From positions 4,325 to 68,324 of the forward strand of contig JAKAJC010000002.1 of the NCBI GenBank assembly GCA_021814005.1: DNA of 64,000 nt. Direction: 5' to 3'. The position numbers and the translations under genes are program-made. The notes under the pieces were generated by a model, which saw only the letters and a list, made by a program, of their open reading frames with translations, was not told the origin of the DNA and did no database searches. The stretch is from Candidatus Micrarchaeota archaeon. Its GTDB lineage: Archaea > Micrarchaeota > Micrarchaeia > Anstonellales > Anstonellaceae. This document shows, piece after piece, positions 10,744 through 37,712 of this stretch (within the stretch, counting starts at the first letter, position 1; every line of letters starts with the position of its first letter).

Positions 10744-10809
10744 TTCTTTAGAATGGAATGAAACAGAGATATGCTTAAAACTTCATTCTGTGTTTTATTA
10801 TAGGTTTTT

Positions 10810-11598
10810 ATGTCAACAAACTCAATGACCTCCCGCGACCGCTACGGCGGCCGCGAATATATCCTGCTTAAGAAAATCACCCCTCACTATAAGTTTTATC
10901 AAAATCTGGTCGGCCTCACGCTCGCCAGCCATTTTGCCAACGCCAAACCCAATGGCAGCATCAAAGTGCTAGAGATTGGCTGCGGGGATGGCTACACTAG
11001 CCGCATTCTGCTGGATTCAGACCCGCGGGTGTCCCTGACCGCCGTAGATATCAGCCGAGAGCGACTGTCTTTGGTGATGGAAAACTTCGGTGCAGAGCTT
11101 TCGTCCGGCCGCCTGCGCATCGTACTCTCAGACGCGCTCACCCTCATGGAGTTGATGGCAGACCGGACTTATGACGCGTTCGCATCTGCGGCCACGCTGC
11201 ACAATTTCGACAAACGCTACCGCGCCAATGTCATCTCCCAAACCGCCCGTCTGCTCAAGCCGGGCGGGCTCTTTATCAATGCAGACAAATTCGCTGTCGA
11301 CGACCCGTTGGAACACGCGCAGCATTTGCAATGGAGCCTGGACATGCTCAACCAATTCGACAGGCTGAACATTTCTGAGCTTAAGGCTTCCGGCTTTCCT
11401 ATCACCCGCGCAGATTTGCTGCAGTTGAAGCAAACCTGGCACGACCATTTTCTAGAAGATGAGAAACCTGACATCATCCAGCATGAGCGGGCGGCCATCG
11501 CGAGCCTCATTCAGAGCGGGTTCGTGGACATTCGGGTTATATTCCGTGCTCAGGTGGATGCCGTGCTCACGGCCGTCCGTGCCAAGTGTCCTGAATAA
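10810..11598 (+). CDS. Class I SAM-dependent methyltransferase
   Basis: Motif I VLEIGCGDGYTSRIL and post-I DIS...; Rossmann-fold methyltransferase pattern. The specificity is unknown. Confidence 0.7.
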   Translation: MSTNSMTSRDRYGGREYILLKKITPHYKFYQNLVGLTLASHFANAKPNGSIKVLEIGCGDGYTSRILLDSDPRVSLTAVDISRERLSLVMENFGAELSSGRLRIVLSDALTLMELMADRTYDAFASAATLHNFDKRYRANVISQTARLLKPGGLFINADKFAVDDPLEHAQHLQWSLDMLNQFDRLNISELKASGFPITRADLLQLKQTWHDHFLEDEKPDIIQHERAAIASLIQSGFVDIRVIFRAQVDAVLTAVRAKCPE

Positions 11599-11917: not shown

Positions 11918-13006
11918 TCAATTAATTTTTATTTTCCATTTTTTCTTGTCTTTGTCTATTTCTTCCATTCCCGTCTTTGGTTTAGCTCCGGCCAATAATT
12001 CAAGGCGCCGCGCTTCAAGAGGAACAAGATAGGTTTCCAGCTGCTGCGCCTCGGCCGATTTTGACACTATTTCTTTTTCGAGGCTCTCCAATGCAGACTG
12101 CTGTTTTTTCAGCCGGTGGCGCAGGCCTTTGAGCTGCGGCGGCTCGGAATCTTTGACTTCTTCCTTGTAATGCGCAAAGAAATATTCAACCGCCTGCGAG
12201 AAACTGGGGAATGGGCGGGCGGAGAAGCCTGATGCCGGATTTTCATATTCTGCCAAAGGCACGAGCGAGAGTTCGAAAACAACAAACTGTTTTGTGTTTT
12301 CATCAATTTTCTCATAAACGCGCGGTTGCGGGTTGATAATCATCTGTGCGAGGCTTTGTAGAAGTTTTTCCGCCTCCGCCTCGCTTACTTCACCGACTTT
12401 CTTTCCAGCCATCCCTGCCTGCATCAGCAATTCATCAGTATATCTCTTGCCAATCGGCCACTTGGACAAGAAGACTGGTAGCGTTGCAGCCGCCTTGTCT
12501 TTTGCCTGCTCTTTCCAGTCATCTATTGTAGGCGGGAAATTGAAAGAGGCAGACGGCGGGTATTCGTATTTTCCGCCCACCATAAATGTGTGTTTGCTGT
12601 CGGGCTTGAAATGATAAGGCCTGATGATTTTGTTGTTTTCATCCAAGAGGAACAGATTGCCGTTGACAAATTGCTCAATCAAGAGACGATGGCCCGAACC
12701 AAGCGTGATGATGTAAATTCTGTCGCTCTTGTACTGCTCAAACGAGGCCAGCCGCTTGCCTCCAGCATATTTTCTAATCGTCATTGCCATCGCGCTGGGG
12801 TTCATGGGCGCGGCAGGCGGGTCGCGCGTGAGGTAAAAGCACGTGCCAAGATGAATCATCAGAGACTCGTTGGTGGAGAAGTCAAGGCGGAAAATATCCG
12901 GCTTTATCTCGAAAACCTTGTCAAGGTGCTTGCCGGCCAAGTGCTGGCCTTCGCTCACCAACTGGCGGTATTCCCAATTAGAAAGCGTGCGGGCCATGTC
13001 AATCAA
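11918..13006 (-). CDS. NFACT-N domain protein (N-terminal half of an RqcH/NEMF/FbpA-like ribosome quality-control protein)
   Basis: It has the NFACT-N-like N-terminus (LSNWEYRQLVSEGQHLAGKHLDKVFEIKPDIFRLDFSTNESLMIHLGTCFYLTRDPP), then a helical region and a C-terminal coiled coil. At 362 aa it is about half of a normal archaeal NEMF homologue and lacks NFACT-R. Confidence 0.6.
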   Translation of the reverse strand: MIDMARTLSNWEYRQLVSEGQHLAGKHLDKVFEIKPDIFRLDFSTNESLMIHLGTCFYLTRDPPAAPMNPSAMAMTIRKYAGGKRLASFEQYKSDRIYIITLGSGHRLLIEQFVNGNLFLLDENNKIIRPYHFKPDSKHTFMVGGKYEYPPSASFNFPPTIDDWKEQAKDKAAATLPVFLSKWPIGKRYTDELLMQAGMAGKKVGEVSEAEAEKLLQSLAQMIINPQPRVYEKIDENTKQFVVFELSLVPLAEYENPASGFSARPFPSFSQAVEYFFAHYKEEVKDSEPPQLKGLRHRLKKQQSALESLEKEIVSKSAEAQQLETYLVPLEARRLELLAGAKPKTGMEEIDKDKKKWKIKIN

Positions 13007-14811: not shown

Positions 14812-15026
14812 CCAAATCCCAAAGTGCGGGGTTTAAGTAGTCGGGCCGGTCCAATTCTATTATCCTAAAGCTAATAGCCGGTGTCCGCGTTCATCGCCTG
14901 CCACCTGTTTGCTCATCCTAAAAATAGTGAATGAGCGTGGCCGCGGAAAAACAATTGGCTCGTGCAATTTGCTTCCTTACACGAAGTACTCTCTGCCCGA
15001 AGACCCAAACTGTGAGAGTGAACAAG

Positions 15027-16724
15027 ATGAAATTCAACGAAATGGGCTTGTCCAAGCCTCTATTGGAATCGCTGGCAACAATGGGCTTTGCCACGCCTAC
15101 CCCTATTCAGGAACAGGCAATTCCCCTGCTGCTAAAAGGCCATGATTTACTCGGTCAGGCCCAGACCGGCACGGGCAAGACGGCCGCATTCGGCCTGCCT
15201 ATATTGGAGGCATGGCTGCGAAACAATTCGCATCACACTCACACCAGCGCCGATGGGCATTCCAGCGCCGGCCATAACCAGCCCGCTCAGCATTCCAATG
15301 CTCATCATCCAAGCGGCCCTCTTACCCAGCACACCAGCCGTTCGGGCGCGCAATACAATTCACGCGGCCCCCAAGCGCCTGCGCGCAATGGAATAGCAAC
15401 CCCGACCGCCCTGATTCTTGTTCCCACCCGCGAGCTGGCGGTGCAGGTGCACCAGTCGCTTCAAACCATGGCAGGCCGCACAGGCGCGCGCGTTGTGCCT
15501 GTTTATGGCGGACAGGAGATGCGAAAGCAATTGCGCGCCTTCCAATATCCTCTCGACATTCTGGTCGGCACTCCGGGCCGCACACTTGACCACATGCGCC
15601 AGGGCAGCCTGAATCTGGACAAAGTGCGCGTTGTGGTTCTTGACGAGGCGGACCGCATGCTTGACATGGGCTTTATCCGTGATGTAACCATGATTTTGGA
15701 AAGCACTCCGACGAGTCGGCAGACCATGCTCTTTTCGGCCACAATGCCGGGCGCAGTGTCCAACATGGCGCACAAATACATGAAGAGCCCGCACACTGTC
15801 AAAGTTTCGGACGAGCAGCTCACAGTGAAACTGACAAAGCAGCTTTATGTGCGCGCAAACGACGCCAACCGCTTCGGCATGCTGCTGGCCGCAATCCGCA
15901 CTCTCAAGCCATATCTTTCTGTGGTGTTTTGCCGCACAAAGCACGGGGCAAACAAACTCTGCCGCCAGCTTAACCAGCAGGGCATCAAAACCCAAGCCCT
16001 GCACGGGAATTTGCGGCAAAATGCGCGCGAGCGCACCATGGCCCAGTTCCGCGACGGAAAAATAGACGTGCTTGTGGCAACAGATTTGGCCAGCCGAGGT
16101 CTTGACGTTATCGGCATTTCGCATGTGTTCAACTATGACATGCCAGACGACCCCATGACTTATGTGCACCGCATCGGCCGCACCGGCCGCGCCGGAGCCG
16201 AAGGGGTTGCTGTTTCATTCATCTTGGGCAATCCGTATCGCCCTGTTGAAATAATTCAGGATGCAACAGGCTCGAAAATGGAAGAGCTTGCGCTTACGGC
16301 TGACGTGGTTTCCATGAGCCCTGTCGAAGTCAGTGAATTTGAGGGCGAGGAAGATGAGGGCTATTCGAGCCGGGAGAGACATCCGAGTCATGCCCGCACT
16401 TTTGGAGGCAACCGCCATTCGGGCCGGGAACGCAGTTTTGGAGGCAACCGCCATTCAGATTCAAGCCGCAATTTCGGTTCGGAGCGCCATTCTGATTCGG
16501 ATAGACATCCTTCCGCCCGGCACCATGAAGGCGGCGAGGAATATTCTGGCGGCAGTCGGCATTATTCCGGCCATCGCCGCGAAGAAGGCTCGTCCCAATA
16601 CGAACGCGGCCCGTCCCGTCACGGCGGCCACCGCGGCGGACGTTCAGACAACCATCCTTCCCGCAACAGGGGTCCCCGCCCGCCTCCGGGCGCGCATCAT
16701 CATTCGAGCCATCGGCGCTATTGA
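15027..16724 (+). CDS. DEAD-box ATP-dependent RNA helicase with a His/Gln/Ser-rich insertion and an Arg/Ser/Gly/His-rich repetitive C-terminal tail
   Basis: Motifs are Q (FATPTPIQ), I (AQTGTGKT), DEAD (VLDEADRMLDMGF), SAT and HRIGRTGRAG. The start is MKFNEM at 15027; the tool's 14931 start adds an unlikely leader. The tail at about 16400..16507 has a 36-bp tandem periodicity (FGGNRHSGRERS / FGGNRHSDSSRN / FGSERHSDSDRH). Confidence 0.9.
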   Translation: MKFNEMGLSKPLLESLATMGFATPTPIQEQAIPLLLKGHDLLGQAQTGTGKTAAFGLPILEAWLRNNSHHTHTSADGHSSAGHNQPAQHSNAHHPSGPLTQHTSRSGAQYNSRGPQAPARNGIATPTALILVPTRELAVQVHQSLQTMAGRTGARVVPVYGGQEMRKQLRAFQYPLDILVGTPGRTLDHMRQGSLNLDKVRVVVLDEADRMLDMGFIRDVTMILESTPTSRQTMLFSATMPGAVSNMAHKYMKSPHTVKVSDEQLTVKLTKQLYVRANDANRFGMLLAAIRTLKPYLSVVFCRTKHGANKLCRQLNQQGIKTQALHGNLRQNARERTMAQFRDGKIDVLVATDLASRGLDVIGISHVFNYDMPDDPMTYVHRIGRTGRAGAEGVAVSFILGNPYRPVEIIQDATGSKMEELALTADVVSMSPVEVSEFEGEEDEGYSSRERHPSHARTFGGNRHSGRERSFGGNRHSDSSRNFGSERHSDSDRHPSARHHEGGEEYSGGSRHYSGHRREEGSSQYERGPSRHGGHRGGRSDNHPSRNRGPRPPPGAHHHSSHRRY

Positions 16725-27600: not shown

Positions 27601-28017
27601 TTATCTTGTTTTTTGTGAAATCGTTTTTCTCAGGCCTTCCAATCCCAGAAGCGCGCATCTCATCCTTGTGGGGCCGGGGTCGATTCCCAAATCTGCAAGC
27701 ACCTGTTTCTTGTCTATTTTTGCGGCCTGCGCAAGAGTCATTCCAATCAGCCTGTCCGAGAGCATGGAAGCCGAAGCTGTTGAAATGGCGCAGCCGGAGC
27801 CGAAAAGGCCGACAGCCTGTATGCGGCCGTCGTGGCCGAGTTTTATGTCAATTCCTATCTCGTCGCCGCACACTGGATTTGATTCCGAGTGCGACAGGTC
27901 TGCTTTCGGCAGGCGGCCCCAGTGGTGGGGCTTTTTGTAATGCTCCAAAATGTTTGCGCGGTAAAGCTGTTCGCGGACCGAAGACAATGGGGAAGGGGAA
28001 GAGGCCATGTCAATCAC
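27601..28017 (-). CDS. sufU: SufU/IscU-type Fe-S cluster assembly scaffold / sulfur acceptor
   Basis: NPVCGDEIGI, GSGCAISTASASMLS and MRCALLGL correspond to the three conserved Cys regions of U-type scaffolds. It overlaps sufS by 4 nt. Confidence 0.8.
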   Translation of the reverse strand: MIDMASSPSPLSSVREQLYRANILEHYKKPHHWGRLPKADLSHSESNPVCGDEIGIDIKLGHDGRIQAVGLFGSGCAISTASASMLSDRLIGMTLAQAAKIDKKQVLADLGIDPGPTRMRCALLGLEGLRKTISQKTR

Positions 28018-29246
28018 ACTGAAAATATCTTTTTCACTTCACGGAGGCCTTCTTCCAATGCAGTAATGTCATCCATGTCATTGTACAAATAGAAAGAAGC
28101 GCGCGCAGTGGAAACAACATTCAGCTGGCGCATGAGCGGCTGGGCGCAATGATGCCCAGCGCGCACTTCCACCCCGTGGCGGTCAAGAATGGTGCCGACA
28201 TCGTGCGCATGCAGGCCGTTCACATTGAACGAGATGACTCCTACGCGGCCGCGCTCGCTCGGAAGTCCGTAAACCTCAATGCCGTCAATTCCATGCAGCA
28301 TGTCAAGCGTTTTTTTGACAAGTTTTTTTTCATGCGCATGAATTTTGTCAATTCCAATTTTGCGGATGTAGCGCATGGCCTCGGCCAAACCGACCGCAGC
28401 CGCAACATCGGGCGTGCCTGCCTCGAATTTGGCCGGACCGTCTGCCCAAGTGGATGCGGTGTCGTCCACGCGGCCAATCTGCCCCCCTCCAGTCATAAAG
28501 GGCGGCAGGCGTTCCATCAATCCATCCGCCATGTAAAGCACGCCAACTCCGGTCGGCCCCAGCATCTTATGGCCCGAAAAGGCGAGAAAATCGCAATTCA
28601 TTTTTCTCACGTCAATTTTCATGTGCGGCGCAGACTGGGCGGCATCCACAACCACCGGGCATTTCCAGTTCTCGTGCGCGAAGCGGGCCATTTCTTCAAC
28701 ATCATTTATTGTGCCCAGCACGTTGGAGGCATGCGCGATTGTGAGCAGTGATGGAGTAATTTGCGAATTTATTTTTTCAAGATTTTTGGCTGTGATTGGT
28801 TTTGTCACATCGAACGGGACAAATGCGAGCTTTCGCCCAGTTCTTGCGCTCATCTGCTGCCACGGCACAAAATTCGAGTGGTGCTCCATTTTTGAAAGAA
28901 GAATTGGGCCGTGCGAAATTTCGGCGGGCAGAACATAGGACAAAAGGTTGATGCTTTCTGTCGTGTTGCAGGTGAAAACAATTTCGTTTGGTTTTGCCCC
29001 AATAAAGCGGGCCGTCTCTTCTCTTGCCTTCTCATATTCTTCGCCAGCCTCGGCGGTAAGGGTGTGCACTCCACGCCCCGGATTTCCATTGTGCCGCTTG
29101 TAATAATCTGACATGGCGTCAAGAACGCACTGCGGCTTCTGGCTGGTGGCTGCATTGTCCAAATAGACAAGGCGGCGGCTGTTCACCTTGCGCGAGAAAA
29201 TGGGAAATTCTTTTCGTGCGGATTTTCCAAGAGCCATCTCAATCAC
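28014..29246 (-). CDS. sufS: Cysteine desulfurase SufS (class V aminotransferase)
   Basis: MEHHSNFVPWQ, PLP-lysine SGHKMLGPTGVGVLY and C-terminal RAGHHCAQPLM (active-site Cys). It sits in the suf operon. Confidence 0.9.
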   Translation of the reverse strand: MIEMALGKSARKEFPIFSRKVNSRRLVYLDNAATSQKPQCVLDAMSDYYKRHNGNPGRGVHTLTAEAGEEYEKAREETARFIGAKPNEIVFTCNTTESINLLSYVLPAEISHGPILLSKMEHHSNFVPWQQMSARTGRKLAFVPFDVTKPITAKNLEKINSQITPSLLTIAHASNVLGTINDVEEMARFAHENWKCPVVVDAAQSAPHMKIDVRKMNCDFLAFSGHKMLGPTGVGVLYMADGLMERLPPFMTGGGQIGRVDDTASTWADGPAKFEAGTPDVAAAVGLAEAMRYIRKIGIDKIHAHEKKLVKKTLDMLHGIDGIEVYGLPSERGRVGVISFNVNGLHAHDVGTILDRHGVEVRAGHHCAQPLMRQLNVVSTARASFYLYNDMDDITALEEGLREVKKIFSV

Positions 29247-29249
29247 GTC

Positions 29250-30584
29250 TCACTCGTCCGCTATCTGTATAAGGCCTGTGTGCGCGCTCGGCCGGGCCTC
29301 AAGGCCCGGAACGGCCAGAGGGCGCGTCTTTGTGCGGCGTGAGGGACGGCGGGCGCCGGCCGTTTTCTTTTCTTTTTTGCCTCTTTTTTCCTCCATTTTC
29401 GGCAGCCGTGTGCCGACAAGGCCGGAAAGATAGCGGCGGCTGCTCTCGCCCCAAATCTTTCCTATCAGCTCGTCGAAATAGCCGCGCAGAATAAGCAGCC
29501 GCGCGTCCTGCTCATCAAGCCCGCGCGAGCGGAGGTAATTCACTTCAGCCTCATCCAGCGCGCCCACGCTTGCCCCGTGCCCAGCCTCCACCTGGTCGTT
29601 GTCCACCTGCAGCGAGGGGATGATGTTGGCCGCAGAATCGGGCGAGAGAAGCAAAGCAGAGCCTGACTGGTGGCTGATGGTGTTCGGCGCAGCGCGTTCT
29701 ATGTGAATGCGACCGCGGTAAACCATGCTGGCTGTTCCGTCAAGCGCGCCGCGGCATGTCATCTCGCCAGACGTGTCGGCGGTCATATGGTGGGAATGTG
29801 TTTCCATGTCCATAAATTGCGAGCCGCGGCCGAAAAACAGCTGGTATGCGTTTGCCTTCGCCCTGCCGCCGCTCAATTGGTTAAGCGTGCGGGTGCGGCT
29901 CACTCCCGCGCCGAAAGCTCCGGCCACGTGCGTAAGCTCTGCGAATTTGCCGAGAATATGGCCGTGATAGCCGAATGCCCAGTCATTTTCGCCATAGCGC
30001 TGAATGGTGGTGAAGCAGAGCTTTGCATCAGCCCCCAGAATCGCTTCACTTACGTCGGTGTGAAGACGGGCGGGAGTATTGGCAGACTGCGGGAGCCGGG
30101 CGGGGGAATTTTCTTCATTCTTTTTTTCTTCCCCGCCAATCATTTCCAATATCACTTCAGCAGTTGCGCCATCTTCCAAAATTATTGTGTGATGCAGGGC
30201 CGAATGGCCGGCCGCAACCGAGCGCAGGTAGATGAGGGGGGCGCTCACGCCGGCCGCCACGCGGATGACAAATCCGTCCTGCGCGTGCGCGCCGTGCCAT
30301 GCCATAAGCTTGTCCTGCTTTGGCGAGGGCTCAAGGCCGGGAGATGAGAGAAGTTTGCTGCCGATTGTCTCGCCCTCATTTTCATCCATTTGCGAGAGCC
30401 GCTCGATGCGTACGCCTTTTGTCATGGATTTGAGGCGGAATTCCAGCTGCGCCGCGCCGATTCCCTCCTTCTCTGCCCGTGCAAAATCGAATTTTGTAAA
30501 GTCCTGATATTCGCCGTCAGCCCAATTGAGATTGGACCAATCTGCGTAGCGGGCGTGGATGGAATTGAGAAATTCTTTTGCCAT
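29250..30584 (-). CDS. sufD: Fe-S cluster assembly protein SufD
   Basis: The SufB/SufD-family C-terminal beta-helix region is present (…RGRIHIERAAPNTISHQSGSALLLSPDS...). It lies between sufB and sufS. Confidence 0.8.
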   Translation of the reverse strand: MAKEFLNSIHARYADWSNLNWADGEYQDFTKFDFARAEKEGIGAAQLEFRLKSMTKGVRIERLSQMDENEGETIGSKLLSSPGLEPSPKQDKLMAWHGAHAQDGFVIRVAAGVSAPLIYLRSVAAGHSALHHTIILEDGATAEVILEMIGGEEKKNEENSPARLPQSANTPARLHTDVSEAILGADAKLCFTTIQRYGENDWAFGYHGHILGKFAELTHVAGAFGAGVSRTRTLNQLSGGRAKANAYQLFFGRGSQFMDMETHSHHMTADTSGEMTCRGALDGTASMVYRGRIHIERAAPNTISHQSGSALLLSPDSAANIIPSLQVDNDQVEAGHGASVGALDEAEVNYLRSRGLDEQDARLLILRGYFDELIGKIWGESSRRYLSGLVGTRLPKMEEKRGKKEKKTAGARRPSRRTKTRPLAVPGLEARPSAHTGLIQIADE

Positions 30585-32093
30585 TTAGAGCCCCTCAATT
30601 TCCATCTCAATGAGACGGTTGATTTCGACCGCATATTCAAGCGGCAGCTGCTTTACCACCGGCTCGATAAATCCGGCGATGATGAGGCGCGTTGCCTCCT
30701 CTTCCGATATGCCGCGCGAGCGCAAATATGTCCGCTGCTCGGCCGAGATGCGGCCCACCGTTGCCTCGTGCCCCACCTTGACGTCGTTTTCCTCTATTTC
30801 CATGCGCGGCACTGTGTCGGAGCCGGAAAGTCCGTCAAGAATAAGGCCGTCGCAGCGCACATGCACGCTCGAGCCATGGCAGCCCTTCTTCATTTTGACA
30901 AGCCCTCTGTAGCGGGCAATGCCTCCGCCGTGTGAAATCGACTTTGAAATGACTGATGAGTGTGTATTTGGTGCAAGATGAATGACTTTTGCCCCCGTAT
31001 CCTTGACCTGCCCCTCGCCAGCCAATGCAATTGTGAGATGGTCGGCACGCGCGCCCTCGCCGGCCAGCACCGAGCATGGGTAGAGCATGGTGGTGCCGCT
31101 GCCCAGCGTGCCGCCCACCCATTCCATAATCGCGCCGGCATCAACAATCGCGCGCTTGGTGTTGAGGTTGTAAACATTTTTTGACCAGTTCTGCACCGAA
31201 GTGTAGCGCACGCGGCTGTTTTTTTTCGCAAAAATTTCAACCACTGCCGAATGCAGGCTTGCCGTGTCGTAGTGCGGGGCAGTGCAGCCCTCAATGTACT
31301 GGACCGAGCTGTTTTCTTCTGCAATTATGAGCGTGTGTTCGAACTGGCCGTATTCAGGATAATTCATGATGAAATAAATCTGAAGCGGCCGCTCAATCTT
31401 CACGCCTTTTGGCACATAAAGAAACGAGCCGCCAGACCACACTGCGCCGTGCAGGGCCGAAAACTTGTTGTCGCCAGCAGGCACGCACTTTGTCATGAAA
31501 TATGGCTTTACCAGCTCGGGATATTCGGCCACGCCCTGGTCCATGCCCATGAAAATTACTCCCTGCTCCTCCAAATTCTTCTGAATCGAATGGTAAAGCA
31601 CCTCGGAATCATATTGCGCCGCCACTCCGCCCAAAATGTCGCGCTCTGCCTGCGGAATTCCAAGCCGCTCGTAGGTCTGCTTGATGTAATCCGGCACTTC
31701 GTTCCAGCTTTTGGCGTTTTTGCGCCCCTCCGGCTTGACATATTCTGTTATGTCGTCAAGATTGAGGCCCGAGAGGTCGGGGCCCCATGTCGGAATGGGC
31801 TTTGTCTGGAAAATGCGGTAAGACATCAGCCGCTTTGCCAGCATCCAGTCAGGCTCGCCCTTGCTTGACGAAATCTCGCGGACAACGTGCTCGCTCAAGC
31901 CCTTTTCATCGACCTTGAAAGAGAATTTCGGCGGATTGCGAATGGTCTCGTGGTAGTTCTCCAGATTCGCCACTATGGACTGCACCTGCGCCTCGTGGCC
32001 CCAGGGCAGTTGGGGTGAAGAAGAATCCGAATCAGCGCCACTTTTTTTTGTTTTTGTTTTTGGCGCTGGTTTTGGCGAAAGAGATTTGGCCAT
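30585..32093 (-). CDS. sufB: Fe-S cluster assembly protein SufB
   Basis: Strong SufB conservation throughout (…KGLDDLRVPLIEK-like core, GTHSSVISKSISHGGG, C-terminal EIEGL). The start is chosen at MAKSLSPKP (ATG 32093, preceded by GAAGAG) rather than 32156, which would overlap sufC by 59 nt. Confidence 0.85.
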   Translation of the reverse strand: MAKSLSPKPAPKTKTKKSGADSDSSSPQLPWGHEAQVQSIVANLENYHETIRNPPKFSFKVDEKGLSEHVVREISSSKGEPDWMLAKRLMSYRIFQTKPIPTWGPDLSGLNLDDITEYVKPEGRKNAKSWNEVPDYIKQTYERLGIPQAERDILGGVAAQYDSEVLYHSIQKNLEEQGVIFMGMDQGVAEYPELVKPYFMTKCVPAGDNKFSALHGAVWSGGSFLYVPKGVKIERPLQIYFIMNYPEYGQFEHTLIIAEENSSVQYIEGCTAPHYDTASLHSAVVEIFAKKNSRVRYTSVQNWSKNVYNLNTKRAIVDAGAIMEWVGGTLGSGTTMLYPCSVLAGEGARADHLTIALAGEGQVKDTGAKVIHLAPNTHSSVISKSISHGGGIARYRGLVKMKKGCHGSSVHVRCDGLILDGLSGSDTVPRMEIEENDVKVGHEATVGRISAEQRTYLRSRGISEEEATRLIIAGFIEPVVKQLPLEYAVEINRLIEMEIEGL

Positions 32094-32097
32094 CTCT

Positions 32098-32886
32098 TCA
32101 CCTCTTCTCTCCCGCGCCGGCTTCGCTCTCAGCATCGGAGCCGAGCAGGCCCGCATAGCCCTCTCTTTCTATCCGCGCCGCGACTTCTGGCCCGCCAGAC
32201 TTGACCAGCTTTCCCCGATGCAGCACATGCACATAATCGGGCTTGAGGTGCTGGAGAATGCGGGCATAATGCGTTATGACAAGCACTCCGAGTTTGCGCT
32301 CTGTGCGCAGGCGCGACACCCCATCGGCAAGAATCTTGAGCGCATCAACGTCAAGGCCGGAGTCAAGCTCGTCAAGAAGAACATATTTCGGCTGCAAAAG
32401 CGCCATCTGCAGCACTTCAAACCGCTTGCGCTCCCCGCCCGAGAAACCGTCGTTGAGATAGCGCTCAAGAAAAGATTCGTCCATGCGCAGGCGCGCCATT
32501 TCCGCCTTGACCAGTTTCTCGAAATCTGGAATCGTGATGGATGGGGCGGGCGCATGCGCCGCATTGTAGATTGTGCGCAGGTAATTGGCAACATTCACGC
32601 CGGGCACTGCCGGCGGATTCTGATAGGCGAGAAAGAGGCCGGCGCGGCTGCGCTCGTCTATGTCAAGCGGCAATATGTCGCGGCCGTCAAGCAGAACCTT
32701 GCCCTGAGTTTTGAAATTCGGGTCTCCGGCCATGGCATAGCACAGCGTGCTTTTGCCCGAGCCGTTGGGGCCCATCAATGCGTGTATTTCCCCCGGCTTT
32801 ATCTGCAAATCAAGGCCTTTCACAATCTGCTTGCCGCTGATTGACACGCGCAAATCCTGAATGAGAAGCGAAGGTGCTGACGTCAT
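32098..32886 (-). CDS. sufC: Fe-S cluster assembly ATPase SufC
   Basis: Walker A GPNGSGKST, ABC signature LNDGFSGGERKR, Walker B LLDELDSGLD and the H-loop. Confidence 0.9.
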   Translation of the reverse strand: MTSAPSLLIQDLRVSISGKQIVKGLDLQIKPGEIHALMGPNGSGKSTLCYAMAGDPNFKTQGKVLLDGRDILPLDIDERSRAGLFLAYQNPPAVPGVNVANYLRTIYNAAHAPAPSITIPDFEKLVKAEMARLRMDESFLERYLNDGFSGGERKRFEVLQMALLQPKYVLLDELDSGLDVDALKILADGVSRLRTERKLGVLVITHYARILQHLKPDYVHVLHRGKLVKSGGPEVAARIEREGYAGLLGSDAESEAGAGEKR

Positions 32887-32939
32887 TGAATCAACTTAAT
32901 ATGATACGATTTTCATGTTTATAATAGTGAGCAGGAAAC

Positions 32940-33515
32940 CTACTTCCGCCTCTCCAGTCTGCCGTGGCCGGGGCAGAGGATTTTCCACTCCACCCCCTCA
33001 AGCAATTGCAGGCTTTCCTCCATCCGCTCCTCCGCGCCCAGCCCGCCCAAATCCGTTCTTCCGTATCCGCCGTCCGCGAATTTGGTGTCCCCAGAGAAAA
33101 GAAAGCCGCTCTTCTCCTCGAAAAGGCACATGCTTCCCGGAGTGTGGCCCGGCGTGTGGATGATGTTGAAATGAAAAGGGCCGAAATCAAAATGCTGGCC
33201 GACAAGCGGTTTGGAATTTTTCGGAATGTTCATGAACGGCAGAGAAGAATCTTCGGCCGGGTGAATCCATACCTCTTTCCAGTCCGGCTTCACGCCTCTC
33301 GTGTGGTCAAAATGGCCGTGCGTAAGAAAGACCGAGTCGGGCGTGAAATCCAGCTCGTCCTTGCCATCTCCAGAGTCAATCATCATTGTCCTGTTTTTCT
33401 TCTCGTCCACGGCCAAATAGCGGGTGGAGCATGTGCGGTTTTCAACCTCGTAAAATAAGATGCCCTTGACGCCTTTGTCTATGGGCCTGAAATCGGAAAT
33501 GGAAATCTTTTTCAT
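32940..33515 (-). CDS. MBL-fold metallo-hydrolase (glyoxalase II-like)
   Basis: It has HGHFDHTRG (HxHxDH) and HTPGHTPGS. The start is MKKISISDF at 33515, and its ATG overlaps the stop of the upstream NFACT-R gene in ATGA. The tool's longer 263-aa version adds an Arg/Ala/Gly-rich junk N-terminus. Confidence 0.7.
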   Translation of the reverse strand: MKKISISDFRPIDKGVKGILFYEVENRTCSTRYLAVDEKKNRTMMIDSGDGKDELDFTPDSVFLTHGHFDHTRGVKPDWKEVWIHPAEDSSLPFMNIPKNSKPLVGQHFDFGPFHFNIIHTPGHTPGSMCLFEEKSGFLFSGDTKFADGGYGRTDLGGLGAEERMEESLQLLEGVEWKILCPGHGRLERRK

Positions 33516-34300
33516 TGAATCACGAATTTTCCGCCCGGCAGAAGCGGCGCGACTTCTTCCACACTGGCGCCCAAGCGGGCCGAGAGAATTTTGGCTGCTT
33601 CCTCTTTCGGCATTGGGCCAGGCGCGAGCGATGCAGCCTGTTCCAATTCCTGCGGATGGATTGCGGGCAGCATGGCGAGCTGTCCGTCCAGATTTCCTAT
33701 TCTCAATTTCAGCGGCATCTGGCGGAACCATTCCCTCTCTCCAGTCAGAACAAAACTGCCAGGGCCAACATAGCCGCCGCCGTCATGCTTGCTCACTTGC
33801 GTGGGGGGCACGGCAAACACGTCAACGGCCGAGGCGCCCACTTTCCATGCCGAAGAATAGGCGCCAGCCCACTGCGCGGCCTCCCTTTTTTCCTCTTCGC
33901 TTGCTTTTTGCCCGTCCTTCAAAATGACTGTGGGCGCGCCCTGAATGTCTGCATGGAAAAACAGGTCTGCGGGAGAGAGGTGCTTGGCATACAATTCGTC
34001 GTTCTGCTTGGCATTTCTGCCCGCCACCACGCGCCGCCCGCCCGAGCCGACGAATGTGAGATAGGGCTCGTACCAGTAGGTTTTCTTTTTCGGCTGTTTT
34101 GATTTCGATGAAGATGATTTTGTTTTTTCTTTTGTTTTTTCCCCTGTTTTTTCTTTTTTCTCAGCCTCGCCAATCTCTTTTTTCGTCTGCTCCATCGCCG
34201 TGAGCAGGCCGGCCTTCTTTTCTTTAAGCTTGCGCAATTCGGCGTATTTGTCCGACAGATTCTGGCGCGCGCTTTTGCGCGCATCAAGCTCGATGTCCAT
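33512..34300 (-). CDS. NFACT-R (DUF814) domain protein with N-terminal coiled coil (C-terminal half of an RqcH/NEMF-like protein)
   Basis: The N-terminal Lys/Glu-rich coiled coil is followed by YWYEPYLTFVGSGGRRVVAGRNAKQNDELYAKHLSPADLFFHADIQGAPTVIL, the NFACT-R/DUF814 core. Confidence 0.65.
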   Translation of the reverse strand: MDIELDARKSARQNLSDKYAELRKLKEKKAGLLTAMEQTKKEIGEAEKKEKTGEKTKEKTKSSSSKSKQPKKKTYWYEPYLTFVGSGGRRVVAGRNAKQNDELYAKHLSPADLFFHADIQGAPTVILKDGQKASEEEKREAAQWAGAYSSAWKVGASAVDVFAVPPTQVSKHDGGGYVGPGSFVLTGEREWFRQMPLKLRIGNLDGQLAMLPAIHPQELEQAASLAPGPMPKEEAAKILSARLGASVEEVAPLLPGGKFVIQ

Positions 34301-34404
34301 GCCAACCGGTTCATCTTGGAGTGTTATAATCCTGCCTTTGCCTGCTCAGCTTTTTCGGGCCAATTAAATCCCTTTTTATATTTTCATCCCATCCATTTGC
34401 TTTA

Positions 34405-35457: not shown

Positions 35458-36969
35458 ATGCGTGGGATGATTTTTCTAACTCTGGCAATTTTCTTCACAG
35501 TTCTGCTGCCTCTTGCGCACGCGCAGTCTGTGCCGAGCGAAATCGCAAGCACGATTGAGCTCAACATGGACCTCACATCGCAAACGCTCTCTTCTGAAGG
35601 CTCGTCAGTGCAGCTTCTCTCGCTCGACGGCCGCCCGAGCTTTATAGTCGAGAACAACCTGCTCGTGCGCGACCCTGTCCGCATTCAGGCGATTTTGGAA
35701 AAAAACATCTCCCTCACCTCGGGCTTTTATGGCGCAATCGCCACAACGCGCGATTCGCTCAACGATTTGCAGGCAATCCGCGCCGCGCCCGAAGCCCACT
35801 GCGCCCAGTATATGGCAGTGGACCGCTTCCCCTGCTTTGACAAGACGAGCTGTGTCAAGGCGGCGCAGGCAAACCCCCAGACCACAGTCATGATAAACGC
35901 CGAGGGCTTCTGGCAGGCGATGGTGGACTGGCAGATGCGCCGCACAGACTTCAATGACAGCATCAACTCGCTCAACGCAACGCTTCAATCAATGTCGCCG
36001 ACGCCCGCTTACTCGAGCGGAGTGCAGGCGGGCATGAACGACGTGCAGGCGAAATTCGACGCGTTCATGCACAACGACCTCTACCGCACCCGCTATGACG
36101 CTGACTGCACCAAATTCAACCGCTCAACCTGCTTCGAGTTCTGCGCCCGCACCAACTGGACCGGCTACTCGAACTGGACTGCCACCGCCGCCTCATGGTC
36201 TGCGGTCAACTCGCGCCTGAACAGCATGGGCTCGCAGTCCTCGCGCGCGCAGGAACTTGCGCAGGCCACCTCCGACTGGCTGAACTATTCCAAAAACCGG
36301 CAGGCGATTTGGGCCGCCATGAACAATGACATGGCCGCGCGAACTGCTTCAATTGACGGAAACATAAGCGCGGCAAACGGCTCCTGGTCCGACCCCGGCC
36401 TCTCGGCCGACATCTCGGCATGGAAAAATTCGCTCAACAGCACGCGCGCTCTCGCGGTGCAGGGCCGCTTCCGCGCCGCTCTTGACACCAAGCCGCAGCT
36501 TGTGAACCAGTCCGACCGGCTGCTGAGCCGCATCACAGACCACCAGACGCGCATGGAGCACATAACCAACAGCATCAAATCAACCCGCTTGGCAGTGGCT
36601 CAGCTGGTCAAATCATCAAACAACCAGTCGGCCACCTTTGCAGCCAGCCTTGCTTCTCTTGAGCAGGCGGCCAAGCCGCCGATTCCGTCAGACCAGCTTC
36701 CCGCCCTTGAAAACCAGTCGTCAAATCTTGAGCAGCTGACCCTTTCCGAAGTCGCCCGCGCGGCCCTCGGCGCCCCGCCGGCGGCCCACGACACTGGCGC
36801 AGAGGCGCAGGCAATCGCGGCAAATCTTAGCAACGGGACTAACGCAAGCGGCAATGCGACACTGGCGCCATCTGCTGTCAAGATTTCCCTGCCGTTCGGC
36901 CTGCAATGCCCGGTTTCGATAGGCCTCATCGGCCTCATCGGCCTGCTCGCCGCTCTTCGCTCGAGGTAA
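35458..36969 (+). CDS. Secreted, heavily N-glycosylation-sequon-rich cell-surface (S-layer-like) glycoprotein with C-terminal PFG-TM-RSR anchor
   Basis: The signal peptide is MRGMIFLTLAIFFTVLLPLAHA|QS. More than 20 N-x-S/T sequons are present (NISLTS, NDSINSLNATLQS, NRST, NWTGYSNWT, NYSKN, NGSWS, NSLNSTR, NQSD, NQSATF, NQSSN, NLSNGTNASGNATL). The C-terminus is LPFGLQCPVSIGLIGLIGLLAALRSR, a tripeptide, a TM helix and a basic tail, as in the PGF-CTERM class. Confidence 0.6.
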   Translation: MRGMIFLTLAIFFTVLLPLAHAQSVPSEIASTIELNMDLTSQTLSSEGSSVQLLSLDGRPSFIVENNLLVRDPVRIQAILEKNISLTSGFYGAIATTRDSLNDLQAIRAAPEAHCAQYMAVDRFPCFDKTSCVKAAQANPQTTVMINAEGFWQAMVDWQMRRTDFNDSINSLNATLQSMSPTPAYSSGVQAGMNDVQAKFDAFMHNDLYRTRYDADCTKFNRSTCFEFCARTNWTGYSNWTATAASWSAVNSRLNSMGSQSSRAQELAQATSDWLNYSKNRQAIWAAMNNDMAARTASIDGNISAANGSWSDPGLSADISAWKNSLNSTRALAVQGRFRAALDTKPQLVNQSDRLLSRITDHQTRMEHITNSIKSTRLAVAQLVKSSNNQSATFAASLASLEQAAKPPIPSDQLPALENQSSNLEQLTLSEVARAALGAPPAAHDTGAEAQAIAANLSNGTNASGNATLAPSAVKISLPFGLQCPVSIGLIGLIGLLAALRSR

Positions 36970-36973
36970 CGCT

Positions 36974-37309
36974 ATGAAATCAAAGCTCCCCCCGCTTCCA
37001 AAAGGCCTGCTTTACTGGCGCAACCGCCTAATGGGGTTCAAAGGCTCTTTCGACATGTCAGACAAAAAACTCAAAACCGCCACGATTGACAGCTCCGACC
37101 AAATCCGGCGGGCAAAGGAGATGAATTCGCGCGAAGCGTTCGACTTTTTGAGAAGCGGGGGCACATTGCACCCCGAGGCAGTCCACATTGCGGCTGGCAA
37201 GCTCAGCTCCGAGCAGGCCGAGTTTCTGCTGGCCTCAAAACCGGCACAGGAAATATCGATTCCCCTTCAGGTCCGCCTGCAGGAGCTTCAGCACAAGGAA
37301 AAGGCCTGA
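36974..37309 (+). CDS. Hypothetical small protein
   Basis: 111 aa with no recognised family. An alternative start is MSDKKLKTA at about 37052. It lies immediately upstream of the PIN gene with a 4-nt gap. Confidence 0.35.
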   Translation: MKSKLPPLPKGLLYWRNRLMGFKGSFDMSDKKLKTATIDSSDQIRRAKEMNSREAFDFLRSGGTLHPEAVHIAAGKLSSEQAEFLLASKPAQEISIPLQVRLQELQHKEKA

Positions 37310-37313
37310 TTTT

Positions 37314-37712
37314 ATGCGTCTCATTCTTCTTGACACCAACTTCTGGCTCATGCCGTTCGAAAACGGCGTTGACATATTCTCGCAGCTCGACCGCTTGTCA
37401 GAAGATTCGCCCTACGAAATCGGCCTGCCAAATTCGGTCAAATCCGAACTTGATGCCATGGCCGCCAGCCCCCTGAACAGAAAACGCACAAGGGCGGCAA
37501 GGTCAGCCAGTCGGGTTATAGAGCAGCTGATGAAAGAGGGCAAAGTAAAGCTTCTTGCCTCAACCGGCCCGGCCGACGGCTCGCTTATCACGCTTGCCCT
37601 GCAGACGGGCGCGTGGGTTGCCACCAACGACCGCGAGCTGCGCCTGCGGCTGAAGGCGAAAAAAATAAAGGTCGTCATTTTGCGCGACGACCACATGCTG
37701 GCGTTTGTGTAG
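37314..37712 (+). CDS. PIN-domain protein, Fcf1/Utp23-like (COG1412-type)
   Basis: The N-terminus is MRLILLDTNFWLMP (PIN Asp). The C-terminus is GAWVATNDRELRLRLKAKKIKVVIL, which resembles the Fcf1-type C-terminus (ATQDRELKRRLR..VP.I). The start is 37314; the tool's 37188 start adds a junk leader. Confidence 0.7.
   Translation: MRLILLDTNFWLMPFENGVDIFSQLDRLSEDSPYEIGLPNSVKSELDAMAASPLNRKRTRAARSASRVIEQLMKEGKVKLLASTGPADGSLITLALQTGAWVATNDRELRLRLKAKKIKVVILRDDHMLAFV

What the first reader, a model, noticed from the sequence alone, without database searches (positions are those of the whole stretch)
32940..34300. NFACT-R (DUF814) gene translationally coupled (ATGA overlap) to an MBL-fold hydrolase
The stop of the NFACT-R protein and the start of a glyoxalase-II-like MBL hydrolase share ATGA at 33512-33515, which implies co-translation. 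NFACT-R is proposed to bind tRNA during CAT-tailing/Ala-tailing. A co-expressed MBL hydrolase could be a nuclease or esterase acting on the same substrate, for example peptidyl-tRNA or tRNA 3' ends. This operon is not part of the textbook RQC picture.
Basis: partly seen in the sequence, partly recalled or inferred. Interest (0 to 1): 0.5.

Follow-up and report, generated by a model that had tools for sequence, protein, structure and literature searches.

The report
Split RqcH half coupled to MBL hydrolase
In this tiny archaeon (Micrarchaeia) the ribosome-rescue protein RqcH is encoded as two separate genes about 20 kb apart, and the gene for its back half overlaps by four bases a small metal-dependent hydrolase gene, a pairing kept in many related species, though what the hydrolase does is still unknown.

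Summary
On the minus strand, a 262-aa NFACT-R gene (33512-34300) and a 191-aa MBL-fold gene (32940-33515) share ATGA at 33512-33515.

The "NFACT-R protein" is not a solo DUF814 protein. It is the C-terminal ~40% of archaeal RqcH (coiled-coil helix 2, NFACT-R, C-terminal domain). The missing N-terminal part (NFACT-N, HhH, coiled-coil helix 1) is a separate 359-aa gene at 11918-12997 (-), 20.5 kb away. Both halves are conserved stand-alone families in Micrarchaeia. The break lies at a β-hairpin turn at the tip of the coiled coil. I found no paper describing this split.

The MBL is a minimal glyoxalase-II-like (YcbL/TTHA1623/BLEG-1-type) enzyme with a complete metal site. It is not RNase Z or β-CASP.

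The pairing is real and old. It occurs in 33 of 80 Micrarchaeia species loci with tight junctions, the two genes co-diverge (r = 0.84), and all 8 close MBL orthologs checked follow a C-half. But it has been lost often, including in a close relative. In 24 of 40 linked loci an Ogg DNA glycosylase is the next gene (4-nt overlap where gene calls were available). Distant relatives of the MBL are never near an NFACT gene.

An RQC role for the MBL is possible but unsupported.

The parts
33512..34300 (-). rqcH C-terminal half (262 aa): beta-strand, coiled-coil helix 2, disordered Lys/Ser-rich linker, NFACT-R domain, C-terminal domain
   Evidence: NCBIfam RqcH_arch NF041120 matches model positions 380-644 of 645 (226 bits). 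Pfam NFACT-R_1 E = 2e-25. It aligns to residues ~380-640 of full-length archaeal RqcH. 116 homologs of ~250-280 aa in Micrarchaeia.
32940..33515 (-). Minimal (191 aa) glyoxalase-II-like MBL-fold hydrolase with a complete binuclear metal site (D47, H66xH68xD70H71, H124, D143, H184)
   Evidence: Pfam Lactamase_B E = 1.8e-15. GloB TIGR03413 scores 54.7 bits against a cut-off of 200.8. Motifs are invariant in 35 orthologs. AF2 pLDDT 95.8. Foldseek top hits are BLEG-1, ST1585, TTHA1623, S. aureus GloB and YcbL.
33512..33515 (-). ATGA stop/start overlap (TGA of the rqcH C-half, ATG of the MBL)
   Evidence: Read directly. The same overlap appears in independent gene calls on the source contig. Overlaps of 1, 4, 8 or 11 nt occur in 12 of 33 related loci.
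34324..34330 (-). TATA-like element (ATTATAA) 30 nt upstream of the C-half ATG; candidate promoter of the bicistronic unit
   Evidence: Sequence inspection. No such element occurs in the last 120 nt of the C-half. A TATA-like motif lies 15-60 nt upstream of the C-half in 28 of 78 loci, against 0 of 80 control positions inside the gene. Function is inferred, not shown.
32918..32925 (-). TATA-like element (ATTATAAA) 39 nt upstream of sufC, in the 53-nt MBL-sufC spacer; suggests the suf operon is a separate transcription unit
   Evidence: Sequence inspection. Spacing data: the Suf genes are 0-12 nt apart, while MBL to sufC is 53 nt.
11918..12997 (-). rqcH N-terminal half (359 aa from the ATG; the ORF extends to a TTG at 13006): NFACT-N with the conserved DR and E-x-F-x-x-GN motifs, HhH region, coiled-coil helix 1, shortened middle domain
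   Evidence: tblastn with N-halves of full-length RqcH, E = 1e-29. NCBIfam RqcH_arch positions 6-346 of 645 (138.6 bits). Pfam NFACT_N E = 5.7e-29. 17 stand-alone homologs of 337-435 aa. Alignment.

Best explanation
The locus is a two-gene transcription unit of a Micrarchaeia (DPANN) archaeon.

Gene 1 is the C-terminal half of a split RqcH/NEMF, the factor that binds the large ribosomal subunit still carrying a peptidyl-tRNA and adds a C-terminal tail to the stalled chain. The N-terminal half is a separate, monocistronic gene 20.5 kb away on the same strand. The break lies at a beta-hairpin turn in the small middle domain at the tip of the coiled coil. So each polypeptide contributes one long helix (about 50 residues each) and part of a shared sheet. 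I infer that the two chains reassemble non-covalently through this antiparallel coiled coil into a canonical RqcH. There is no extra sequence at the break that could be a split intein.

Gene 2 is a minimal glyoxalase-II-like MBL hydrolase with an intact binuclear metal site. Its ATG overlaps the stop of gene 1, and no Shine-Dalgarno-like motif or internal promoter-like element was seen. It is therefore probably translated by termination-reinitiation from the same mRNA.

The linkage arose early in Micrarchaeia and was inherited vertically, with many losses. In many lineages the unit also includes an Ogg-type DNA glycosylase. Most likely the MBL is a small-molecule (thio)ester hydrolase carried in a lineage-specific housekeeping or damage-control operon, and not a dedicated RQC enzyme.

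Shown here: gene structure, domain identity, the split, conservation of the pairing, and the MBL's class. Inferred: reassembly of the halves, co-transcription and translational coupling, and the MBL's substrate.
For: The split. The two ORFs match complementary parts of the RqcH_arch model (6-346 and 380-644 of 645). The alignment places the N-half end (..KKKWKIKIN) and the C-half start (MDIELD..) on adjacent strands of full-length proteins. A fused N+C model has pLDDT 93.4, with CC1 at 287-335, strands 345-348 and 353-358, the break at 359|360, strand 360-365 and CC2 at 370-421. Its best PDB matches are NEMF, Rqc2 and RqcH over full length. Both halves are conserved stand-alone families. Both occur as separate genes in four genomes. 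The DR motif of NFACT-N is retained.

The operon. The 4-nt overlap is confirmed. TATA-like elements lie upstream of the C-half and of sufC but not between the C-half and the MBL. Junctions are tight in 33 loci.

Age of the linkage. The mirror-tree correlation is r = 0.84, against a permuted maximum of 0.28. Linked loci fall in several deep clades. 8 of 8 close MBL orthologs checked follow a C-half.

The MBL as a generic small-molecule hydrolase. Its nearest sequence and structure relatives are the YcbL/TTHA1623/BLEG-1/GloB types. It gives no Lactamase_B_2, RMMBL or beta-CASP hit. The family is acidic, median pI 5.8. It is absent from 47 of 80 loci and from a relative whose C-half is 62% identical but whose synteny is otherwise intact. 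Ogg follows it in 24 of 40 linked loci, with a 4-nt overlap in the two loci with gene calls. 77 distant relatives are not near any NFACT gene. Synteny between unrelated genes also persists around the N-half.
Against: Reassembly of the two halves is inferred only from homology and from a model of an artificial fusion. No two-chain prediction or experiment was possible. Co-occurrence of the halves was verified in only four genomes; the N-half diverges faster and was not traced in the more distant Micrarchaeia. Against a merely incidental MBL linkage: the MBL orthogroup was found essentially only directly downstream of the C-half, it co-diverges with the C-half, and the junction stays tight while the upstream neighbour changes (DHS, the 503-aa protein, PIN_9, a small membrane protein). 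That is the usual signature of a functionally linked operon. The MBL scores far below the GloB family cut-off (54.7 vs 200.8 bits), so its substrate is open. Some glyoxalase-II-like MBLs act on RNA or sit on ribosomes (LACTB2 and mt-SAF20 are among the structural hits).
Confidence: 0.6

Rival explanations
1. The MBL is a dedicated accessory enzyme of archaeal RQC in these lineages, produced together with the RqcH C-half. It would act on the same substrate, for example by hydrolysing the peptidyl-tRNA or aminoacyl-tRNA ester to release tailed chains, or by healing tRNA 3' ends as the MBL-fold enzyme ELAC1 does after ANKZF1 cleavage in eukaryotes.
For: The linkage is tight, old and vertically inherited, and the MBL orthogroup is found essentially only in this position. 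The metal site is intact and fully conserved. Short GloB-type MBLs hydrolyse carboxy esters (PMC8318587, abstract seen). Glyoxalase-II-like folds include an RNA endonuclease (LACTB2) and a ribosome-bound factor (mt-SAF20), both among the structural hits. From general knowledge, no release or tRNA-recycling factor is established for archaeal RQC.
Against: The MBL does not resemble RNase Z or beta-CASP. The family is acidic and has no RNA-binding extension. It was lost from 47 of 80 loci while the C-half was retained, including in a close relative. An Ogg DNA glycosylase follows it in 24 of 40 linked loci, with a 4-nt overlap in the two loci with gene calls. RtcA is a neighbour in only 2 loci. 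No MBL partner was reported for archaeal NFACT genes generally (PMC4075521).
Confidence: 0.2
2. The C-half works on its own as a solo NFACT-R protein (like eukaryotic CCDC25/Jlp2), independently of the N-half, with the MBL as its catalytic partner. The N-half would then be a separate or decaying function.
For: The two halves are transcribed from distant loci with different neighbours. The C-half family is more conserved and easier to detect than the N-half family (116 vs 17 word-based hits). Solo NFACT-R proteins do exist (PMC4075521).
Against: The C-half retains coiled-coil helix 2 and the strand that pairs with the end of the N-half, features that make sense only as half of the RqcH coiled coil. 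The N-half keeps the DR and GN motifs and is conserved at 36-84% identity, so it is not decaying. Both halves co-occur in all four genomes that could be checked. CCDC25 matches only the NFACT-R core (about 125 columns).
Confidence: 0.1
3. The split is an artefact: a frameshift, a mis-assembly, or a pseudogene in a single MAG.
For: The sequences come from metagenome-assembled genomes, which can contain assembly errors.
Against: The same ~260-aa C-half, starting with Met at the same position, is seen in 80 species-level genomes and in more than 100 protein clusters. The exact window protein occurs on 14 contigs. The N-half is a complete ORF in at least 17 clusters. The halves are 19-20 kb apart or on different contigs, separated by many intact genes.
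Confidence: 0.02

Closest known systems
Archaeal RqcH (NCBIfam NF041120) / NEMF / Rqc2 / bacterial RqcH
   Same: Same domain set and order: NFACT-N, HhH, coiled coil with middle domain, NFACT-R, C-terminal domain. The DR motif is conserved. The fused model matches NEMF, Rqc2 and RqcH structures over full length.
   Different: It is encoded as two genes 20.5 kb apart, broken at the hairpin at the coiled-coil tip. The middle domain is shortened by about 40 residues. Neither half alone reaches the family cut-off of 400 bits (138.6 and 226.2).
Split genes for information-processing proteins in DPANN archaea (e.g. reverse gyrase and aminoacyl-tRNA synthetases in Nanoarchaeota and Micrarchaeota; Dph1/2)
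   Same: Same phenomenon and the same group of organisms: a multidomain translation or information-processing protein encoded in two separate genes (PMC6349945).
   Different: RqcH is not among the cases listed there, and no paper in the searchable library mentions it. Here the split appears class-wide (80 of 80 Micrarchaeia loci have the short form) and not confined to one extremely reduced genome.
Solo NFACT-R proteins (CCDC25 / Jlp2)
   Same: They share the NFACT-R core fold (Foldseek E ~1e-5 over about 125 columns).
   Different: CCDC25/Jlp2 lack coiled-coil helix 2 and the RqcH C-terminal domain. The window protein aligns end to end with the C-terminal 265 positions of archaeal RqcH.
Short glyoxalase-II-like MBL hydrolases: YcbL/GloC (2xf4), TTHA1623 (2zwr), BLEG-1 (7ev5), S. 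aureus GloB (7l0b), ST1585 (3adr)
   Same: A single-domain MBL core of ~190-210 aa without the C-terminal helical domain of classical GloB. It has the HxHxDH, H, D, H metal ligands and a GRTD-type motif. These are the best sequence and structure matches. BLEG-1 and YcbL have glyoxalase II activity (PMC8431146).
   Different: Only 24-28% identical, TM about 0.65-0.70. It is smaller, with only two DSSP helices of 4 or more residues in the model, and has a family-specific N-terminal ~30 residues. It is below the GloB equivalog cut-off. No activity is known. Its fixed position downstream of an RqcH half was not seen in the 77 more distant MBL relatives sampled.
ELAC1 / RNase Z and ANKZF1/Vms1 in eukaryotic RQC (tRNA release and 3'-end repair)
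   Same: They show that an MBL-fold enzyme can act downstream of NEMF in RQC (abstract of 10.1101/2021.08.05.455008).
   Different: The window MBL does not belong to the RNase Z branch. It gives no Lactamase_B_2 hit, has no flexible-arm or exosite-sized insertion, and RNase Z structures are absent from the top 50 fold matches. This is a resemblance of idea only.
Conserved archaeal NFACT neighbourhood (Mut7-C RNase + AMMECR1; Burroughs & Aravind 2014)
   Same: An AMMECR1 gene lies ~7 kb from the N-half on the same strand. A PIN-fold gene (PIN_9) recurs near the C-half.
   Different: Neither is adjacent in the window. PIN_9 is not the Mut7-C family by Pfam. The MBL and Ogg partners seen here are not part of the published neighbourhood.

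Membership tests
Archaeal RqcH (NF041120) / NFACT family | NFACT-N domain with conserved Asp-Arg (DR) motif | tested here: met
   Present, but on the separate N-half gene 11918-12997(-). Pfam NFACT_N E = 5.7e-29. 'SDRIY' aligns with 'FDRI' of full-length proteins.
Archaeal RqcH (NF041120) / NFACT family | NFACT-R (DUF814) domain followed by the archaeal C-terminal domain | tested here: met
   Pfam NFACT-R_1 E = 2e-25. RqcH_arch model positions 380-644 of 645 are matched. The D-L-F-F-H-A-D motif is invariant in 36 sequences.
Archaeal RqcH (NF041120) / NFACT family | Two-helix coiled coil with middle domain linking the N and R modules | tested here: met
   In the fused model, helices 287-335 and 370-421 flank a three-stranded sheet, with pLDDT 85-97. 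The middle domain is shortened relative to full-length proteins.
Archaeal RqcH (NF041120) / NFACT family | Single polypeptide scoring above the curated cut-off (400 bits) | tested here: not met
   Two polypeptides, scoring 138.6 and 226.2 bits. This is a split variant, not a canonical single-chain member.
Archaeal RqcH (NF041120) / NFACT family | Binds 50S-peptidyl-tRNA and drives C-terminal tailing | not testable with these tools
   Needs biochemistry or cryo-EM.
Hydroxyacylglutathione hydrolase GloB (TIGR03413 / NF007597) | Score above the equivalog cut-off, and a C-terminal helical substrate-binding domain | tested here: not met
   54.7 bits vs 200.8, and 46.1 vs 421. Only model positions 16-154 of 248 are matched. 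The protein ends right after the last metal-binding His.
MBL-fold superfamily (Pfam Lactamase_B), glyoxalase-II-like short branch | Motifs D, HxHxDH, H, D, H and the alpha-beta/beta-alpha sandwich | tested here: met
   All ligands are invariant. pLDDT 95.8. Top fold hits are BLEG-1, ST1585, TTHA1623, short GloB and YcbL.
RNase Z / beta-CASP RNA-processing MBLs | Lactamase_B_2-type core with flexible arm (RNase Z), or beta-CASP plus RMMBL domains | tested here: not met
   No such Pfam hits at E <= 0.01. At 191 aa there is no room for these inserts. None appears in the top 50 Foldseek PDB matches.
Split genes of DPANN archaea | Two separately encoded ORFs that together cover one ancestral protein, both conserved, with no intein | tested here: met
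   Model coverage is complementary. Both families are conserved. The halves are separate genes in four genomes. There is no extra sequence at the break.

The most novel reading that the evidence does not exclude
In Micrarchaeia the RqcH C-half and the minimal MBL form a functional module in which the MBL supplies a catalytic step of archaeal RQC that has no known enzyme. That step could be release of the tailed nascent chain by hydrolysis of the peptidyl-tRNA ester on the 50S subunit, or repair of the tRNA 3' end. The naturally two-piece RqcH might also allow the tRNA-recruiting N-half and the ribosome/tRNA-anchoring C-half to be assembled or regulated separately.
Probability: 0.15. Interest if true: 0.75.

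Novelty: new variant of a known kind. Interest (0 to 1): 0.45.

Why it matters
RqcH/NEMF is treated as a universally conserved single-chain factor. A natural two-piece version, cut exactly at the tip of the coiled coil and kept across a whole archaeal class, amounts to a ready-made domain-dissection experiment. It shows that covalent continuity through the middle domain is dispensable, and it offers separately expressible halves for structural and biochemical work on archaeal RQC, which is barely studied.

It also matters for annotation. The halves are currently labelled 'NFACT RNA binding domain-containing protein', 'DUF814' or 'NFACT family protein', and each scores below the RqcH family cut-off. 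Surveys of RQC distribution would therefore score Micrarchaeia as lacking RqcH, or as having only a solo NFACT-R protein.

The conserved MBL partner is a cheap, testable candidate for a missing archaeal RQC activity, although the present evidence leans towards a generic hydrolase.

Tried and rejected
1. My first crude greedy ORF caller mis-called overlapping genes. I dropped it in favour of homology-anchored coordinates and the collection's own gene calls.
2. I looked for an N-half within ±10 kb of the C-half in 80 loci and found none. The halves are never adjacent.
It was still useful as an out-group control, but it could not give a large reciprocal sample, so I spot-checked five orthologs individually instead.
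4. RtcA (RNA 3'-phosphate cyclase) sits upstream in Ca. Anstonella and looked like an RNA-end theme, but it recurs in only 2 loci. Rejected as a partner.
The fused model therefore uses the window sequence with full-length and half-length homologs as alignment rows.
6. Cluster look-up gave no organism names for the closest fused RqcH proteins, so the sister lineage that still has an unsplit gene is unknown.
7. The sigma-70 promoter/terminator scanner was not used because the organism is an archaeon. I did a simple TATA-like motif count instead.
8. Split intein: rejected because there is no extra sequence at either side of the break.
9. Literature searches for a described split RqcH or an NFACT-MBL link found nothing.
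Full report
OBSERVATION. Both genes lie on the minus strand. ORF 33512..34300 encodes 262 aa and ends ...GGKFVIQ-TGA. ORF 32940..33515 encodes 191 aa and starts ATG-AAA-AAG (MKKISISDF...). The longer 263-aa reading of the second ORF, from an ATG at 33731, is not the real gene. Orthologs start at the MKK position. An identical 191-aa protein is on record (P0117). An independent gene caller on the source contig (GCA_027348425.1, DAIEPL010000002.1) gives 10001-10789 and 10786-11361, the same 4-nt overlap, and it is the only same-strand overlap in 20 kb. Pfam gives NFACT-R_1 (E = 2e-25) and Lactamase_B (E = 1.8e-15).

WHAT GENE 1 REALLY IS. The NCBIfam model for archaeal RqcH (NF041120, 645 positions) matches the 262-aa protein only over positions 380-644 (226 bits against a cut-off of 400). 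Pfam also sees a weak match of residues 1-56 to the 'middle' part of NFACT_N. An exhaustive phmmer search found 2,444 relatives. The closest are all ~250-280 aa, and full-length archaeal RqcH proteins (about 550-750 aa) align to the query through their residues ~380-640. So the gene is the back ~40% of RqcH.

Using the front ~380 residues of seven full-length proteins as tblastn queries, I found the missing part inside this window: ORF 11918..13006 (-), E = 1e-29. It matches RqcH_arch positions 6-346 (138.6 bits) and Pfam NFACT_N (E = 5.7e-29). It keeps the Asp-Arg motif ('SDRIY' vs 'FDRI') and the E-x-F-x-x-GN motif of NFACT-N. The two genes are 20.5 kb apart on the same strand, with about 20 intact genes between them.

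THE BREAK POINT. In a joint alignment, the N-half ends '...EEIDKDKKKWKIKIN' and the C-half begins 'MDIELDARK...'. In full-length proteins the matching segments are the adjacent strands '...IDTKIGKIYLDL-EDE-VEIDLKK...' that precede coiled-coil helix 2. The helical insert of the middle domain is about 40 residues shorter in the split form. There is no extra sequence at either side, so no split intein.

An AlphaFold2 model of the window's N+C concatenation was built with 38 full-length proteins, 10 N-halves and 24 C-halves as alignment rows. It has mean pLDDT 93.4. Helix 287-335 (N-half) and helix 370-421 (C-half) flank strands 345-348 and 353-358 (N-half) and 360-365 (C-half). The chain break at 359|360 falls at a hairpin turn, with pLDDT 85-95 around it. 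The best PDB matches are human NEMF (E = 3e-35), yeast Rqc2 and B. subtilis RqcH over their whole lengths. TM-scores are low because the domains are posed differently. The model is of an artificial fusion. It shows compatibility with the RqcH fold, not that the two chains associate.

THE SPLIT IS A LINEAGE TRAIT, NOT AN ARTEFACT. The word-based search found 116 C-half homologs. Apart from a few shorter partial sequences and one 358-aa hit, they are ~240-300 aa and carry only NFACT-R, and all named ones come from Micrarchaeota/Micrarchaeia, apart from two labelled Marsarchaeota. A scan of one genome per GTDB species returned 80 loci, all with the short form. The record titles name Micrarchaeota/Micrarchaeia, apart from a few labelled only 'archaeon', 'uncultured archaeon' or 'Candidatus ainarchaeum sp.'. 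The N-half has 17 detectable stand-alone homologs of 337-435 aa carrying NFACT_N only.

Both halves are confirmed as separate genes in four genomes:
- the window's genome;
- GCA_041643055.1, with the halves 18.7 kb apart on the same strand;
- the JBDRNY MAG, on different contigs;
- the CABMCD MAG, on different contigs.

The N-half is always monocistronic. It sits in a conserved arrangement with the Na+/H+ exchanger and DEAD-box helicase on one side and a histone and CysRS on the other. Split information-processing genes are a known DPANN feature (PMC6349945). RqcH is not among the listed cases, and I found no paper describing it. Burroughs & Aravind (PMC4075521) describe archaeal NFACT genes as neighbours of Mut7-C and AMMECR1 and mention neither a split nor an MBL. 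An AMMECR1 gene does lie ~7 kb from the N-half in this window.

GENE 2, THE MBL. The 191-aa protein has every metal-binding motif (D47; H66-x-H68-x-D70-H71; H124; D143; H184), and these are invariant in 35 orthologs. It matches GloB models only over the catalytic core and far below cut-off (54.7 vs 200.8 bits). It ends directly after the last His, so it lacks the helical substrate-binding domain of classical glyoxalase II. Its closest solved sequences are 7ev5 (BLEG-1), E. coli GloB, TTHA1623, YcbL and the short S. aureus GloB.

The AF2 model (pLDDT 95.8) gives the same neighbours by Foldseek, plus ST1585, LACTB2, persulfide dioxygenases and the trypanosome mitoribosome assembly factor mt-SAF20. 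No RNase Z or beta-CASP structure is in the top 50, and there are no Lactamase_B_2, RMMBL or beta-CASP Pfam hits. The family is acidic (median pI 5.8), whereas the C-half is basic (9.5). So it belongs to the short glyoxalase-II-like branch, whose characterised members hydrolyse thioesters, carboxy esters or beta-lactams promiscuously (PMC8431146, PMC8318587). Its substrate is unknown.

IS THE PAIRING CONSERVED? Partly, and in an informative way.
- In 33 of 80 species loci an MBL ortholog lies immediately downstream on the same strand. In 46 there is none within ±10 kb. In one it is 6.5 kb away on the other strand.
- In the linked loci the gap is -11 to +32 nt, with one at +77. Twelve junctions overlap: six by 1 nt, four by 4 nt, one by 8 and one by 11 (MBL starts were chosen heuristically).
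- The upstream neighbour changes (DHS, a 503-aa secreted-looking protein, PIN_9, a small membrane protein), while the C-half-MBL junction is kept.
- Linked loci fall in several deep branches of a C-half tree, interspersed with unlinked ones.
- Pairwise distances of the two proteins correlate (r = 0.84 over 703 pairs; the maximum in 500 permutations was 0.28), up to ~63% divergence. The linkage is therefore old and vertically inherited, with repeated loss.
- Reciprocally, every close MBL ortholog I could check follows a C-half: 3 of 3 from a metagenome scan and 5 of 5 spot checks, including the near-complete Ca. Anstonella genome. None of 77 more distant MBL relatives has an NFACT gene within 4 kb.

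REASONS FOR CAUTION ABOUT A FUNCTIONAL LINK.
(i) The MBL is dispensable at this position. In GCA_041643055.1 (C-half 62% identical, synteny otherwise intact, sufCBDSU downstream) it is simply missing. In three loci it is missing from between the C-half and Ogg.
(ii) In 24 of 40 linked loci the next gene is an Ogg-type DNA glycosylase (PF22175). In the two of those loci where gene calls were available it overlaps the MBL by 4 nt. A stop/start overlap is therefore not specific to RQC genes here.
(iii) Where the MBL is absent, the downstream slot holds unrelated genes: a CDC48-like ATPase in 7 loci, PurL in 5, a secreted protein in 4, and many singletons.
(iv) Synteny among plainly unrelated genes also persists at similar divergence around the N-half.
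(v) RtcA, which would have fitted an RNA-end theme, recurs in only 2 loci.

EXPRESSION (INFERRED). A TATA-like ATTATAA lies 30 nt upstream of the C-half ATG (34324-34330), and the same motif lies 39 nt upstream of sufC (32918-32925), in the 53-nt spacer after the MBL. No such motif occurs in the last 120 nt of the C-half, and no Shine-Dalgarno-like motif precedes the MBL ATG. The Suf genes are spaced 0-12 nt apart. This fits a bicistronic C-half-MBL mRNA in which the MBL is translated by termination-reinitiation, with a separate suf transcript. No transcript data were available.

CONCLUSION. The interpretation needs two corrections. First, the 'NFACT-R protein' is half of a split RqcH whose other half is at 11918-12997. 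This is the main finding, and to my knowledge it is undescribed: a new variant of a known factor and a new case of DPANN gene splitting. Second, the MBL is a minimal glyoxalase-II-like hydrolase. Its conserved, tight, co-diverging linkage to the C-half is real but lineage-restricted and often lost. My estimates are: generic small-molecule (thio)esterase carried in a housekeeping or damage-control operon, about 0.6; dedicated RQC enzyme, about 0.2; C-half and MBL acting independently of the N-half, about 0.1. Interest is moderate (0.45). The split RqcH is useful to RQC and DPANN specialists and matters for annotation, and the MBL is a cheap candidate to test for a missing archaeal RQC activity.

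Noticed in passing
window 4206-4826 (-): An AMMECR1 homolog (tblastn E = 3.6e-64 to the L083 AMMECR1) lies ~7 kb downstream of the RqcH N-half on the same strand. AMMECR1 is also ~5.7 kb from the N-half in L083. It looks like a loosened remnant of the published archaeal NFACT-AMMECR1 neighbourhood, and it stays with the N-half locus, not the C-half locus.
   Followed up: partly
window 37314-37712 (+); also L002-L008, L011, L022, L025, L038, L044, L053, L084, L170: A 132-aa PIN_9 (PF18477) protein recurs close to the C-half, often directly upstream and divergent (53-110 nt in L022, L044, L053). It has no NCBIfam name and is not the Mut7-C family by Pfam. It might be the local counterpart of the PIN-fold RNase reported next to archaeal NFACT genes.
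   Followed up: partly
L035, L039, L041, L052, L056, L057, L076 (downstream of the C-half); L039, L056, L057, L076, L078 (upstream): In a basal group of Micrarchaeia the C-half is followed by a CDC48/VCP-like AAA ATPase (with an intein-sized insertion in L056) and preceded by topoisomerase I with -7 to +9 nt spacing. Cdc48 is an RQC component in eukaryotes, so this adjacency may deserve its own look. It could also be plain synteny.
   Followed up: no
L009-L034 (many), L047, L048, L064, L165, L166, L168, L169: An Ogg-HhH (PF22175) DNA glycosylase is the third co-directional gene after the MBL in 24 of 40 linked loci; it overlaps the MBL by 4 nt in L168 and L169, where gene calls were available. 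In L013, L017 and L036 it directly follows the C-half with the MBL missing. The window has no Ogg homolog.
   Followed up: yes
window 28014-32886 (-): A complete sufC-sufB-sufD-sufS cluster lies immediately downstream of the MBL (a NifU-like gene follows on the source contig). It recurs downstream of the pair in about 20 loci at variable distance, and it appears to have its own TATA-like element.
   Followed up: partly
window 14931-16724 (+): A DEAD-box helicase with a ~170-residue C-terminal tail rich in His, Ser, Arg and Gly (low complexity). A DEAD-box helicase lies on the same side of the RqcH N-half in the related genomes where that side was covered.
   Followed up: no
window 35458-36969 (+) and 36974-37309 (+): A 503-aa protein with an N-terminal signal-like segment, a C-terminal hydrophobic anchor and many N-x-S/T motifs, plus a 111-aa protein. 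Neither has a Pfam or NCBIfam hit. Homologs of the 503-aa protein are conserved upstream of the C-half in related loci.
   Followed up: no
L083 1213-2418: An IS605 OrfB/TnpB (Cas12f-like) gene lies ~5.6 kb from the N-half in the JBDRNY Micrarchaeota MAG.
   Followed up: no
PDB hits 6sg9_FL / 9hny_FL: Among the closest solved relatives of the MBL is mt-SAF20, a glyoxalase-II-like MBL-domain protein bound to the trypanosome mitoribosomal small-subunit assembly intermediate. So this MBL branch has at least one ribosome-associated member.
   Followed up: no
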